Made by a program: the position numbers. Below are positions 1 through 3,000 of a stretch of DNA of 6,638 nucleotides, piece by piece (the first letter of the stretch is position 1; the number at the start of each line of letters is the position of its first letter). The stretch comes from a virus (lineage: Duplodnaviria > Heunggongvirae > Uroviricota > Caudoviricetes): the IMG/VR virus record IMGVR_UViG_2534681998_000020, one strand, 5' to 3'.

Positions 1-3000
1 GCTTCGTTGGTTAGCTATTAACGTGGGTATGTAATCATTCTGGCAATGCTTAATGCCGCTGCTTTTTCCAGATTGGTGATATCCTGCTCCAGAGCGGACA
101 GATTTTCAGCCTGCTTAGCCCTGGCTTCATTGGCCCATTTCAGGTCCTGCACCGCCTTAATTTTCTGGTGCATCCACTCATAAAGTTCATCATCGGTATA
201 GTCTGGCGCGATGATGACGGGGTCTCGTTTCTGCATGTCGGCTCCTTGTGGTTAGCGTTGCCTGCTTTTTAACCACGTCAGGCGAGGTGGTATCCTCTGA
301 GGGGTCTGTTACTCGAGAGGAAATTGGTTATGAATACAATCAAGTTTTCTTGCCCAGAATGTGGTGGCTAAGTCTTTGACACATCCTTTAAGCCGCAGGG
401 CTCTGACAGTTTCGCGGGAGCCATCTGCAAAAATTGTGGTCACCTTGTAACTGAAGATGAGTCCTCGCAGTTCGATGACGAAATCGTTGACAATATCTTC
501 GGTGCACTCACCAGAGACTTTCTGAAGTAAAGGCGCATACCGCTTAGTTACCGCTCTGATAACTCTTACCTGTCCGGCAATGGCGCTGATATCAATATAA
601 AGCGCCATCGCTGTTTCTTTGCTGATCCCTGGACGCCTTCCATTCTGATGTTTGACTCGCCCACTGAGAAATCCTCTGCTTCCCCTTAACGCCGGGTAGC
701 GGAACTGTTTGCTGAGAACACCGTGCGGTGTCTTGATGAGTAGAATTTAGAATAGCCTAAGAGTTATGGTCAAGCTTTTTGTGTAGAAAAACCTAAGCTT
801 CTTGATGTAAAAAACACAAGTATTTGAAAGTTTGTGCTTTTTATTACAGAGAGTTGCGAAAAAAAGGGGGGTTATTTATTTGCGCTTCTTTTGCGAGCTT
901 TGAGTAGTTCTTCAAAAAGTTTGTTGAAATTCTCAACTCGAGCACGCATCTCTGACAACAGAGCCTTTTGCTCTGACTCAGGCAGTGCGTCGAACAGTTG
1001 AAGCAACTCTTTTTGATCTTCTGTCAGATTGACTGGCTGATTATCTGGGATCGGTTCGCCTGGTTGCTTATCTTCATCTCCAAAAAGAAGCCAAGTCGGC
1101 GAGCACTGAAGCGCCTGGCTCAGTGCGAATAATCTCTTCCCCGCTGGCTGTGTTTCATCTCTTTCCCATTGAGAAATTGTTACGTGAGCCACTTTGACCA
1201 GCTTACCTAATGCGGCCTGAGACAGTTTTAATTTTTTTCGCCTGTATAAGAGGCGAGCACCGAAGGTTTCGTTTTTCATATTAGGTAATTCTAATTTTTC
1301 TTGACTTAGGTTTCTCTACGATCTAGTTTCCTTAGGAAAATCTAAGGGTTTCGATATGTTGAAAATTGATGCTATAGCGTTTTTTGGCAGCAAAACAAAG
1401 CTTGCCAATGTCGCAGGAGTTAGGCTGGCAAGCGTTGCTGCATGGGGGGAACTGGTTCCTGAAGGTCGCGCGATGCGCCTGCAAGAGGCATCCGGCGGGG
1501 AACTTCAGTACGACCCCAAAGTTTATGACGAATATCGTAAGGCAAAGCGGGCGGGGCGGTTGAACAATGAAAATCACCACTGAACAGGTTTGTGAGGCTC
1601 TGGATACCTGGGTATGCCGACCAGGAATGACACAGGAGCAGGCGACGATATTAATCACGGAAGCATTCTGGGCTCTGAAAGAACGCCCGAACATCGATGT
1701 TCAACGCGTCACGTTTAATGATGGCGAGGTTGATCAACGGGCGCTGGGCGTTAACCGGGTGAAGATATTCGAACGCTGGAAAGCTATCGACACCAGAGAT
1801 AAGCGTGACAAATTCACGGCGCTGATTCCGGCAATTATGGAGGCTATCCGGATCAGCGATTTCAGATTGTATTGTGAAATTACTGACGGAAAAAGCATTA
1901 CGTACATGATCGCCGGGTTAAACAAAGAATATGGCGATGTGGTGGAGTCCGGGCTGCTTTTTGCGGATCCAGTTGTTGTGGAACGTGAGACTGACGAGCT
2001 TATAGAAAAAGCTATTGCTTTCAAGCACGCGTATCGTCAGCAATACCAATATTACTTTGCAGATAAACAAATGTCTGCCAGGGGGGCGTATGAGTATCGA
2101 TGCACTACGATGGGCTAAAAAGGTGAAAACCGGCAGTTCATCCAGTAAGTCAGTATTGACCTGGCTTGCTGATATGTGCGGTGCCGATTTGTGTGCATAC
2201 CCGTCTGTATCTGCACTGGCAGAAGTAACGGAACTGAACAAAAAGACTGTGCAGGACAGCTTACGACACCTGATGGAGATTGGGTTAATTGTTGATACCG
2301 GTGAGAGAAAAGGCAGAACAAAGCAAATTGTGGTGTACCGACTTATCGGTGTAGAAGAAAGTGTTGCCGAGCCTGAATACACCCAAAAACGGGAGTCTTT
2401 AAAGGTGGGTAAAATTGGTGCTGTTAATAAAAACAGTACCGAAAATGGTTATGTTTCAGCACAAAACAGACCCAAAAACAGAACTCTTAGCTGCATGGAA
2501 AATAACCAAAGACACCCAAATTTTCCATCAAAGACACCCAAAAACGGATCACGGAACCCAAAGGAACCCAAAGATCTAAACCCCACACATAACGCACGCG
2601 AGAGTGCTCCGACCAGTGAGCAGGAAGTTTTGTCGTTACAGGCAGCCCCCCCTGTATTCCTGTATGGCCTGAGCGAACCCATCGGAAAATTCCCGATGAG
2701 CGATAGCTGGTATCCGTCACGGGATTTTCGACGACGGGCTGCGTTGTGGGGGATGGCTTTGCCGGAGACAGAATTTACACCTGCTGAACTTGCCGCCTTC
2801 CGGGACTACTGGGCAGCGGAGGGGAAAGTGTTTACGCAGATTCAGTGGGAGCAGAAATTCGCCCGTCACGTAAATCACGTCAGGGCGCAGGTTAAACCAG
2901 TCAGCAAAGGGGTAAACCATGCAGCAGCACCAGGTGGCACCGCATCACGGGCAGTTCAGGAAATTCGGGCAGCACGTGAGCAGTGGGAACGTGAAAACGG

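What the first reader, a model, noticed from the sequence alone, without database searches (positions are those of the whole stretch)
2381..2577. Iteron-like repeats inside the initiator gene mark a probable origin
At least six direct copies of an (A)CCCAAA core, including a perfect tandem GGAACCCAAA duplication and two AGACACCCAAA copies 22 bp apart, lie in the linker between the wHTH domain and the DnaT-like domain, with an AT-rich stretch among them. In lambda the origin is four iterons plus an AT-rich segment inside O, bound by the O N-terminal domain. The same logic appears here with a different repeat, which would define this prophage's initiator-origin specificity.
Basis: partly seen in the sequence, partly recalled or inferred. 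Interest (0 to 1): 0.55.

Follow-up and report, generated by a model that had tools for sequence, protein, structure and literature searches.

The report
Replication origin inside prophage initiator gene
The repeats are real DNA-level binding-site repeats (iterons) embedded in the replication-initiator gene of an E. coli O157 prophage, very probably its replication origin, built on the phage lambda plan and shared by a large family of phages across Proteobacteria.

Summary
ACCCAAA occurs six times in the window, all on the + strand within 2381-2572 (1.07 expected; 0 of 200 shuffles reach six). The repeats lie in the disordered linker of a wHTH + DnaT-like initiator that is followed by a lambda-P-like loader.

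Anatomy, revised:
- Four full 21-bp iterons (2375, 2431, 2464, 2530), two decayed ones (2403, 2508).
- A separate pair of GGAACCCAAA 10-mers (2553-2572).

Across 87 homologous genes from Gamma-, Beta-, Alphaproteobacteria and Desulfovibrionaceae, the motif AAACAGTCCCAAAAACGGGAC is about 150-fold enriched at this position and falls in all three reading frames. Where it encodes P-K/E-N-G, proline is CCC in 65 of 65 cases, against 13% elsewhere.

Searching the DNA motif alone finds the wHTH gene upstream in 114 of 117 arrays. Two exceptions are true lambda-O-family genes with the same core.

Genes with the same C-terminal half but other N-terminal modules carry different repeats or none.

Origin function itself is inferred, not shown. 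Verdict: a new member of the lambda-type "origin inside the initiator gene" kind.

The parts
2090..3130 (+). Replication initiator gene (346 aa): N-terminal winged helix, disordered linker, DnaT-like ssDNA-binding domain, C-terminal tail
   Evidence: Pfam DnaT 61 bits (cut-off 25); HTH_36 20.9 bits, below its cut-off of 25. phrog_1032 'replication initiation protein' E 8.8e-91. AF2 domains. DnaT crystal structures 6aeq/4ou6 match at E 6e-6.
2090..2353 (+). Coding region of the wHTH DNA-binding domain (aa 1-88; predicted recognition helix aa 51-64, wing aa 69-79 DTGERKGRTKQ)
   Evidence: AF2 secondary structure H-H-H-H-E-E with pLDDT 70-88. Fold hits to wHTH regulators and plasmid RepA N-terminal domains at E~1e-2. 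The same PHROG profiles (678, 345) are hit by the lambda O N-terminus.
2375..2395 (+). Iteron 1, GAATACACCCAAAAACGGGAG; the CCC starts at codon position 2, so the core reads T-Q-K-R-E
   Evidence: Matrix score 24.1 bits. Positionally conserved first iteron in relatives.
2403..2423 (+). Decayed iteron (AAAGGTGGGTAAAATTGGTGC), aligned to the intact second iteron of relatives
   Evidence: Alignment with EPP-1, Serratia and E. coli 1344 loci.
2396..2456 (.). Least stable, most AT-rich segment of the gene (69% A+T); candidate unwinding region
   Evidence: Nearest-neighbour stability profile.
2431..2451 (+).
   Evidence: Matrix score 20.0 bits. Variants in E. coli relatives move towards the consensus: T2446C in 18 sequences, G2441A in 3.
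2464..2484 (+). Iteron 3, AAACAGACCCAAAAACAGAAC; the window carries CAG where 52 of 58 distinct relatives carry the consensus CGG
   Evidence: Matrix score 22.0 bits; position 2480 variation.
2508..2528 (+). Variant penultimate iteron, AAAGACACCCAAATTTTCCAT, 22 bp before the last iteron. The same CCCAA(A)TT..CC subtype sits 22 nt before the last copy in Bcep176, Beijerinckiaceae and Acinetobacter loci.
   Evidence: matrix score only 2.5 bits.
2530..2550 (+). Iteron 4 (last), AAAGACACCCAAAAACGGATC
   Evidence: Matrix score 21.9 bits. No variable site between 2530 and 2566 in 58 distinct E. coli-type sequences.
2553..2582 (+). Second element: two perfect GGAACCCAAA 10-mers (2553-2562, 2563-2572) plus a degenerate third (GATCTAAACC). 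This is the window's version of the family-wide GAAYC-headed 10-13-mers that begin exactly 6 nt after the last iteron.
   Evidence: First GAAYC at offset 6 in 61 of 66 tails. At least 2 phased copies in 58 of 72 tails, against 0.1% of control windows.
2572..2580 (.). Mosaic junction: downstream sequence is 87-90% identical to genes whose N-terminal halves are unrelated (DUF1376, replisome-organizer-like, other)
2690..2890 (+). Coding region of the DnaT-like ssDNA-binding domain (aa 201-267)
3123..3584 (+). Lambda-P-like helicase loader gene; its ATG overlaps the initiator's last codons (the public record annotates the start at 3162)
   Evidence: Pfam Phage_lambda_P 61 bits. phrog_109 'P-like helicase loader' E 1.8e-54. 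Annotation.

Best explanation
Window 2375-2582 is the replication origin of this lambdoid prophage (PPompW type of E. coli O157:H7). It is written into the linker-coding part of the initiator's own gene.

Proposed mechanism:
1. The initiator's N-terminal winged-helix domain binds the four intact 21-bp iterons. These are partly dyad-symmetric: CC and GG arms around an A5 tract.
2. The bound array forms an O-some-like nucleoprotein complex.
3. The duplex opens nearby, either in the AT-rich patch 2396-2456 or at the GGAACCCAAA 10-mers that follow the last iteron at a fixed 6-nt distance.
4. The C-terminal DnaT-like domain holds single-stranded DNA, and the constant C-terminal half recruits the P-like loader with host DnaB.

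Shown here:
- the repeats exist;
- they are constrained as DNA and not as peptide;
- they are tied to this wHTH module across very distant phages;
- the protein is an initiator-type protein with a P-like partner.

Inferred: binding, unwinding site, helicase recruitment and actual firing.
For: 1. Non-random cluster on one strand.
2. Family-wide conservation. A 21-nt matrix gives 397 hits on the sense strand within +220..+640 of 87 homologous genes (11 per kb) against 0.07 per kb elsewhere in the same loci. 79 of 87 loci have at least 2 hits.
3. DNA-level constraint.
 - Hits occupy frames 0/1/2 as 241/72/84, and only 48% of spacings are multiples of 3.
 - Peptide-defined P[KE]NG uses CCC 65/65 against 13% elsewhere, AAA 47/47 against 65%, and AAC 97% against 54%.
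 - One orphan array lies in DNA with no ORF longer than 71 aa.
4. Linkage to the DNA-binding module.
 - Genes with the same C-terminal half but other N-terminal modules have no matrix hits. L170 and L172 carry their own GTCACGACAT 10-mers instead; L171 has only weak 2-3-copy repeats and L002 no clear array.
 - The motif alone retrieves the wHTH homologue directly upstream in 114 of 117 viral-contig arrays.
5. Bridge to proven origins.
 - Two of the three exceptions are PF04492 lambda-O-family genes with 5 copies of TACCCAAAAACGGGTA followed by a lambda-like A/T tract.
 - Lambda's own iterons (TCCCTCAAAACGAGGGA) share the CCC/A-tract/GGG plan and the same position just after the wHTH-coding part.
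6. Residue 55 in the predicted recognition helix has the highest mutual information of all N-terminal positions with the iteron flank.
7. The linker is disordered, so it can tolerate DNA-imposed sequence.
8. A P-like loader gene follows.
9. An 8,461-bp record deposited as a circular plasmid holds only repressor, cro, ydaT, this initiator with intact iterons, P, some cargo, hok and rem. MOB-suite reports no replicon type for it, so it looks lambda-dv-like.
Against: - There is no experimental datum for binding or initiation in this family. Full-text searches found none.
- The AT-rich patch is modest (69% A+T) and lies between iterons, not beside them as in lambda. The A-rich tract seen after the 10-13-mers in many relatives is nearly absent here.
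- This copy shows decay: iteron 3 has CAG for CGG, and there are two degenerate iterons. Neighbouring genes carry nonsense codons. The origin may therefore be weakened in this strain.
- The matrix was seeded from the same zone, so the enrichment is partly circular.
- Codon and covariation statistics are not corrected for shared ancestry.
- The residue-55 association was noticed by eye before it was tested.
- The circular 8.4-kb record could be an assembly artefact.
- The region also folds well as RNA (z = -3.4).
Confidence: 0.75

Rival explanations
1. The repeats are initiator-binding sites, but they act mainly in control: autorepression, titration or handcuffing of the initiator, or exclusion of related phages. 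Replication would then start elsewhere.
For: Iterons do double duty in plasmids (established knowledge; review PMC4980987, seen only in the result lists, not read). The AT-rich element here is weak. Stx-phage origins carry extra iterons that O binds weakly (PMC7466680).
Against: - No other iteron cluster, DnaA box or candidate origin exists in the window.
- The fixed-offset 10-13-mer element and, in relatives, an A-rich tract directly follow the array, as in true origins.
- Lambda-O-family genes with the same core have a lambda-like A/T tract beside it.
Confidence: 0.12
2. The repeats reflect a repeated peptide (P-K-N-G-like) in a low-complexity linker that is selected at the protein level. 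The DNA similarity would be a by-product.
For: 61% of family-wide copies are in the frame that reads P-K-N-G. The linker consensus shows NxPxNGxV repeats.
Against: - 39% of copies are in the other two frames. The first iteron is read as T-Q-K-R-E.
- Synonymous sites are frozen: CCC 65/65, AAA 47/47, AAC 97%.
- Within the codon at positions 0-2, the third base is 97% C, while the first base, and so the residue, varies.
- Half of the spacings break the frame.
- An array exists outside any ORF.
- The 10-bp tandem at 2553-2572 cannot be a peptide repeat.
Confidence: 0.03
3. The dyad-symmetric units act as RNA hairpins in the early transcript, or are sites for a host protein rather than for the phage initiator.
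For: The segment 2370-2585 folds better than shuffles (z = -3.41). Symmetric flank positions are complementary more often than expected. The core is conserved across hosts.
Against: - G:T combinations at the symmetric positions fall below expectation (7 observed against 23 expected; 21 against 30). This argues against RNA stems.
- Stems would be only about 5 bp.
- The motif tracks the wHTH module, not the host. Acinetobacter alone hosts several flank types, matched to different N-terminal sequences.
- Genes in the same E. coli hosts with other N-terminal modules lack the motif.
- No Rfam family matches the segment.
Confidence: 0.05

Closest known systems
Phage lambda O protein and ori-lambda (and the Stx-phage versions with six iterons)
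   Same: - The origin lies inside the initiator gene, immediately 3' of the part encoding the N-terminal DNA-binding domain.
- There are four or more ~19-21-bp imperfect dyads with CCC...GGG arms around an A-tract, in mixed reading frames. Both have a minor AAATT subtype.
- A P-type helicase loader gene follows.
- The N-terminal domain plus iterons behave as one exchangeable unit.
   Different: - The N-terminal domain does not match Pfam Phage_rep_O (against for lambda O).
- The arms are 6 bp apart rather than 9, and lambda iterons score at most 2 bits on the family matrix.
- The C-terminal domain is DnaT-like rather than Phg_2220_C.
- The AT-rich patch lies among the iterons.
- An extra element of phased GAAYC 10-13-mers follows the array.
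DopC/DopE, the domesticated HTH_36 + DnaT_C and P-like gene pair of Cellvibrionales and Oceanospirillales (Brezellec et al. 2017, PMC5509034)
   Same: Same two-gene architecture and the same domain composition as the window's initiator and loader.
   Different: DopC is chromosomal and resident. Its authors report no iteron-like sequences and no origin at the locus. The phage copies studied here keep the array. I could not fetch dopC DNA to run my matrix on it.
Lambda-O-family (PF04492) initiators of viral contigs L256 and L263
   Same: They carry the same iteron core: 5 copies of ACTTACCCAAAAACGGGTAA inside the gene, after the DNA-binding domain.
   Different: Their N-terminal domain is a clear Phage_rep_O member. 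The array is followed by a lambda-like A/T-rich tract instead of GAAYC repeats.
Iteron plasmids (RepA/RepE/pi, RK2 TrfA) and their 13-mer unwinding repeats
   Same: Winged-helix initiator; phased direct repeats; short tandem 10-13-mers next to the last binding site (established knowledge; PMC4081077, seen only in the abstract list, not read).
   Different: There is no Rep_3 or tandem-WH architecture. Only weak fold similarity to the pSK41-type RepA N-terminal domain (E~1e-2). The origin is inside the coding sequence.
E. coli primosomal protein DnaT
   Same: The C-terminal ssDNA-binding domain is 54-59% identical to solved DnaT domains over 68-70 aligned residues (rmsd about 1.0). NCBIfam DnaT matches over positions 82-166.
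   Different: It scores 93 bits against an equivalog cut-off of 201, so it is not DnaT. The domain is fused to an origin-binding module.

Membership tests
Lambda-type origin embedded in the initiator gene | Array of four or more ~18-21-bp direct repeats (imperfect dyads) inside the initiator ORF | tested here: met
   Four full and two degenerate copies at 2375-2550. Partial dyad symmetry family-wide.
Lambda-type origin embedded in the initiator gene | Array placed just after the DNA-binding domain coding part, in an interdomain linker | tested here: met
   wHTH aa 10-88; iterons at aa 96-154; linker pLDDT below 40. First iteron at +285..+308 in most relatives.
Lambda-type origin embedded in the initiator gene | Adjacent AT-rich unwinding region | tested here: inconclusive
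   Only a 69% A+T patch, 2396-2456, between iterons. Relatives have an A-rich tract after the GAAYC repeats, which is nearly absent in the window.
Lambda-type origin embedded in the initiator gene | Repeats conserved as DNA beyond coding needs | tested here: met
   Codon test and frame distribution.
Lambda-type origin embedded in the initiator gene | Initiator N-terminal domain binds the repeats | not testable with these tools
   Indirect only: module linkage and residue 55 / flank covariation.
Lambda-type origin embedded in the initiator gene | The fragment supports initiator-dependent replication | not testable with these tools
   Hint only: the 8,461-bp circular record NZ_CP148379.1 holds little besides this module.
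Lambda-type origin embedded in the initiator gene | Helicase-loader gene immediately downstream | tested here: met
   Phage_lambda_P 61 bits; phrog_109 E 1.8e-54.
Phage_rep_O protein family (Pfam PF04492, lambda O) | Match to PF04492 above the gathering score | tested here: not met
   No PF04492 hit at E <= 0.01, whereas lambda O gives 123 bits. hhalign of the N-terminal alignment against lambda O gives probability 2%. There is only a transitive link through PHROGs 678 and 345.
HTH_36 + DnaT-like phage initiators (phrog_1032) | N-terminal HTH_36 (PF13730) domain | tested here: inconclusive
   The window protein scores 20.9 bits, below the cut-off of 25. Its homologues at 37-78% identity pass, and phrog_1032 matches at E 8.8e-91.
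HTH_36 + DnaT-like phage initiators (phrog_1032) | C-terminal DnaT ssDNA-binding domain | tested here: met
   PF17948 61 bits. Foldseek to 6aeq/4ou6 at E 6e-6, rmsd about 1.0 over 68-70 aligned residues.
Iteron-plasmid Rep proteins (Rep_3 / RepA-RepE-pi) | Rep_3-type tandem winged-helix architecture | tested here: not met
   No Rep_3 hit. RP-C only at E 0.0078, below its cut-off. One wHTH only in the model.
Peptide tandem repeat in a low-complexity linker | Units in one frame, with free synonymous variation | tested here: not met
   Three frames are used; synonymous sites are fixed.

The most novel reading that the evidence does not exclude
The window is one instance of an origin 'grammar' that does not appear in the searchable literature and spans Proteobacteria.
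- It consists of 4-11 iterons of the form AAC-AGT-NCC-RAAAAY-GG-NAC.
- A variant copy often sits 22 bp before the last iteron.
- Two or three GAAYC-headed 10-13-mers start exactly 6 nt after the last iteron.

The core is shared by two initiator families (HTH_36-type and some lambda-O-type) and also occurs as an orphan, non-coding array. Many unrelated temperate phages, and possibly satellites, could therefore cross-recognise each other's origins. Specificity would be set by a simple code between recognition-helix residue 55 and the iteron flank.
Probability: 0.3. Interest if true: 0.6.

Novelty: new member of a known kind. Interest (0 to 1): 0.42.

Why it matters
- It would give a sequence-level way to locate origins in a very large class of temperate phages and prophages, including prophages of E. 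coli O157, Klebsiella, Acinetobacter, Vibrio and Burkholderia. These are currently annotated only as "DnaT-like" or "helix-turn-helix" proteins.
- It explains why the linker of these initiators looks like a low-complexity peptide.
- It shows that the lambda rule holds in a second initiator family: the N-terminal domain plus iterons form one exchangeable specificity cassette, and the C-terminal half plus P form another.
- It offers a compact test bed for protein-DNA specificity (residue 55 against the flank) and for origin cross-talk between co-resident prophages, of which O157 strains carry many.

Tried and rejected
- **Peptide-repeat explanation.** Rejected on frames and codons.
- **Known RNA family.** Only sok, at 6159-6308, matches Rfam.
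- **Internal promoter or terminator.** None found in 2000-3200.
- **DnaA boxes.** None in the window.
- **Direct homology to lambda O.** hhalign gives probability 2%.
- **Within-E. coli polymorphism as a conservation test.**
  - Variable-site density is 0.095 in the wHTH part, 0.158 in the iteron zone and 0.298 in the mosaic C-terminal half.
  - That is too little and too confounded to be decisive. Several changes do move copies towards the consensus, and 2530-2566 is invariant.
- **First related-loci scans.**
  - The first genome contigs attempt failed for lack of a conserved stretch.
  - The first viral scan returned only near-identical E. coli copies.
- **Domesticated dopC as a negative control.** My third protein search did not retrieve Cellvibrionales DopC. 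I rely instead on the authors' statement.
- **Literature.** Eight full-text searches found nothing on these iteron sequences or on this initiator type. Hits to the motif string were unrelated primers or Cas13a crRNA repeats.
- **N-terminal-only protein search.** It returned mainly fragments.
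Full report
**Context**

The window is the early region of a lambdoid prophage. It is 100% identical to many E. coli O157:H7 chromosomes and 99.7% identical over the initiator gene to the phage records named PPompW. Gene order:
- a DicA-like repressor (872-1279, minus strand);
- a P22-Cro-like gene (1356-1583);
- a YdaT/CII-like gene (1567-2118);
- the initiator (2090-3130);
- a lambda-P-like loader (3123 or 3162 to 3584);
- a DUF1627 gene;
- an AT-rich island with paa/adfO;
- hok/sok.

The initiator has an N-terminal winged helix, a DnaT ssDNA-binding domain and a disordered linker between them.
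- The winged helix scores 20.9 bits on HTH_36, just under the cut-off. phrog_1032 "replication initiation protein" matches at E 8.8e-91.
- The DnaT domain (aa 201-267) scores 61 bits. Foldseek matches the solved DnaT domains 6aeq and 4ou6 at E 6e-6.
- AlphaFold2 models the linker (aa 89-194) as disordered, with pLDDT about 30-40.

**The observation**

ACCCAAA occurs six times, all on the + strand, only within 2381-2572. The expected count is 1.07, and none of 200 shuffles reaches six. The perfect GGAACCCAAA tandem (read from the sequence), the two identical 14-mers 22 bp apart and the AT-rich patch at 2396-2456 (69% A+T, the least stable part of the gene) are all there.

**What the unit really is**

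I collected homologues of the N-terminal domain from two sources:
- annotated phages: Edwardsiella EPP-1, phiV10, Acinetobacter AP22, Vibrio H20 and Burkholderia Bcep176;
- a one-genome-per-species collection, giving 80 loci at 35-77% identity. These come from Enterobacterales, Acinetobacter, Vibrio, Pseudoalteromonas, Marinomonas, Burkholderiales, Sphingomonadales, Beijerinckiaceae and Desulfovibrionaceae.

Nearly all carry an array of repeats at the same place, +260 to +540 nt from the start codon. The shared form is AAACAGTCCCAAAAACGGGAC.

The informative positions are AA at -6/-5, A at -3, CC at +1/+2, RA at +3/+4, A at +6, GG at +9/+10 and A at +12. The flank positions were not part of the seed pattern and still proved conserved.

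The matrix gives 397 sense-strand hits inside the zone (11 per kb) against 0.07 per kb elsewhere in the same loci. 79 of 87 loci have at least two hits.

In the window it identifies:
- four full iterons: 2375-2395, 2431-2451, 2464-2484 and 2530-2550, at 20-24 bits;
- a variant at 2508-2528;
- a decayed copy at 2403-2423, shown by alignment with close relatives.

**DNA or peptide?**

- I selected sites by peptide only (P-K/E-N-G within aa 70-220; 65 sites in 32 loci).
- Proline is CCC in 65 of 65 sites, against 13% of Pro codons elsewhere in the same genes.
- Lysine is AAA in 47 of 47 sites, against 65% elsewhere.
- Asparagine is AAC in 97% of sites, against 54% elsewhere.
- Family-wide, the copies occupy the three reading frames 241/72/84, and only 48% of neighbour spacings are multiples of three.
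- In the window, iteron 1 has its CCC starting at codon position 2 and reads T-Q-K-R-E. Iterons 2-4 read x-P/T-K/E-N-x.
- The 10-bp tandem cannot be a peptide repeat.

The constraint is therefore on the DNA. These statistics are not corrected for shared ancestry, and the matrix was seeded inside the zone.

**Link to the DNA-binding module**

From about 2572 onward, the window gene is 87-90% identical to genes whose N-terminal halves are unrelated: DUF1376 in Rac-SA53, a replisome-organizer-like type in L170 and L172, and another type in L171.
- None of those genes has a matrix hit on the sense strand. The only hit in these loci is one minus-strand hit in L171, upstream of the gene.
- L170 and L172 instead carry two clusters of GTCACGACAT 10-mers. 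L171 has only weak 2-3-copy repeats, and Rac-SA53 (L002) shows no clear array.
- All keep the same C-terminal half and a P-like neighbour.

This is the lambda arrangement: the N-terminal domain and iterons move as one cassette, and the C-terminal half and P move as another.

I also ran the reverse test. I searched viral contigs for three CCCAAAAACGG copies by DNA alone. 114 of 117 arrays with enough upstream sequence lie directly after a homologue of this wHTH on the same strand.

The three exceptions are informative:
- L256 and L263 are genuine Phage_rep_O genes (E 3.5e-27). They carry five ACTTACCCAAAAACGGGTAA copies followed by an A/T-rich tract much like lambda's.
- L226 is an array in a stretch with no ORF longer than 71 aa.

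**Comparison with lambda**

Lambda's annotated iterons (TCCCTCAAAACGAGGGA and relatives, including an AAATT variant) lie at the same relative position and in mixed frames. Their arms are 9 bp apart rather than 6, and they do not score on my matrix.
- The window protein does not match PF04492.
- hhalign against lambda O is not significant.
- The N-terminal parts of both proteins do hit PHROGs 678 and 345.
- Brezellec et al. report HTH_36 in lambda O by HHpred.

I therefore file the element as working like ori-lambda, and not as a member of the lambda O family.

**A second element**

The two GGAACCCAAA units are not further iterons.
- In 61 of 66 distinct arrays, a GAAYC pentamer begins exactly 6 nt after the GG of the last iteron.
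- 58 of 72 arrays have two or three such pentamers at 9-14-nt spacing, against 0.1% of control windows.
- Many are then followed by an A-rich run.
- The window has two copies (2553, 2563) plus a degenerate third (GATCTAAA), which abuts the mosaic junction.

By analogy with the 13-mers of oriC and RK2 (my own knowledge), this may be the unwinding or loading site. That is inference.

**Specificity**

The iterons are partly dyad-symmetric. Positions -1/+12, -2/+13 and -5/+16 are complementary more often than expected, and G:T combinations are under-represented, which argues against RNA stems.

Flank positions -2/-1 differ between clades: GT, CA, CC, TA. Among all N-terminal positions, residue 55 in the predicted recognition helix has the highest mutual information with this flank.
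- A hydrophobic residue goes with GT in 18 of 23 clusters.
- A polar residue goes with another dinucleotide in 13 of 14 clusters.
- Fisher p = 3e-5.

I noticed this by eye before testing it, and it is not phylogenetically corrected. It still fits direct read-out by the wHTH. It also suggests that specificity resides in the flanks, not in the shared core.

**State of this copy**

- Iteron 3 reads CAG where 52 of 58 distinct relatives read CGG.
- Two copies are degenerate.
- The DUF1627 gene carries GAG to TAG at 3669.
- A small zinc-ribbon-like ORF (330-531) has an in-frame TAA.

The origin in this strain may be weakened.

**Hint of autonomy**

A record deposited as an 8,461-bp circular plasmid contains only repressor, cro, ydaT, this initiator with four intact iterons, P, a few cargo genes, hok and rem. 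No replicon type is assigned to it. It looks like a lambda-dv analogue, but it could be an assembly artefact.

**Literature**

Full-text searches found no description of these iterons. The closest paper describes the domesticated DopC/DopE pair, which has the same domain architecture, and reports no iterons there. PMC7466680 documents the lambda and Stx-phage origin plan used for comparison.

**Verdict**

It is an ordinary kind of thing, an origin inside an initiator gene, in a family where it does not seem to have been described. It has a strikingly conserved grammar. Binding and firing remain to be shown.

Noticed in passing
L256 1700-1990 and L263 9200-9500 (IMG/VR contigs): Genuine lambda-O-family (PF04492) initiator genes carry five ACTTACCCAAAAACGGGTAA iterons with the same core as the window's family. 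A lambda-like A/T-rich tract follows. They bridge the two initiator families.
   Followed up: partly
L226 6150-6420: An orphan array of at least four TCCCAAAAACGGGTAC iterons, plus GAAYC repeats in inverted orientation, lies in a stretch with no ORF longer than 71 aa. It may be a stand-alone origin, for example of a satellite, or a remnant.
   Followed up: partly
L173 (NZ_CP148379.1, whole 8,461-bp circular record): A deposited 'plasmid' consists only of repressor, cro, ydaT, this initiator (iterons intact, CGG in iteron 3), P, a few cargo genes, hok and rem. It has no typed replicon. It is lambda-dv-like if real, and could be an assembly artefact.
   Followed up: partly
L170 1629-1690 and 1910-1960; L172 1631-1664 and 1912-1956: Initiators with the same C-terminal half but a replisome-organizer-like N-terminus carry two clusters of tandem GTCACGACAT 10-mers. 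This is probably a different iteron set at the equivalent place.
   Followed up: partly
window 3618-4352 (stop at 3669-3671): The DUF1627 gene has a GAG to TAG nonsense change relative to PPompW_132418 and L170. Only a GTG-started 193-aa ORF (3771-4352) remains.
   Followed up: yes
window 330-531: A small CxxC...CxxC zinc-ribbon-like ORF (MNTIKFSCPECGG*VFDTS...CKNCGH...) is interrupted by an in-frame TAA at 369-371.
   Followed up: partly
window 6159-6461: A hok/sok type I toxin-antitoxin locus: Rfam sok at 103.9 bits (6159-6308) and a Hok-family ORF at 6249-6461.
   Followed up: yes
window 2417-2528: Three inverted repeats lie inside the iteron zone: 2417-2426/2434-2443, 2446-2458/2496-2508, and a perfect 9-mer at 2495-2503/2520-2528. 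The segment folds better than shuffles as RNA (z = -3.41). Their role is unexplained.
   Followed up: partly
window 4380-5200: Short broken ORFs (103, 53 and 41 aa) precede a very AT-rich stretch (5046-5192, 77-82% A+T) upstream of the paa/adfO-like solute-binding gene (5212-5970). It looks like a foreign cargo island inside the prophage early region.
   Followed up: no
L159 2275-2400 and L168 2264-2365 (Desulfovibrionaceae): Distant homologues lack the CCCAAAAACGG motif. They carry GC-rich repeats at the same position with 17- and 22-nt spacing (CCCCCGAAC..., CCCCCGCCGGAAA). The architecture is kept while the sequence is replaced.
   Followed up: partly
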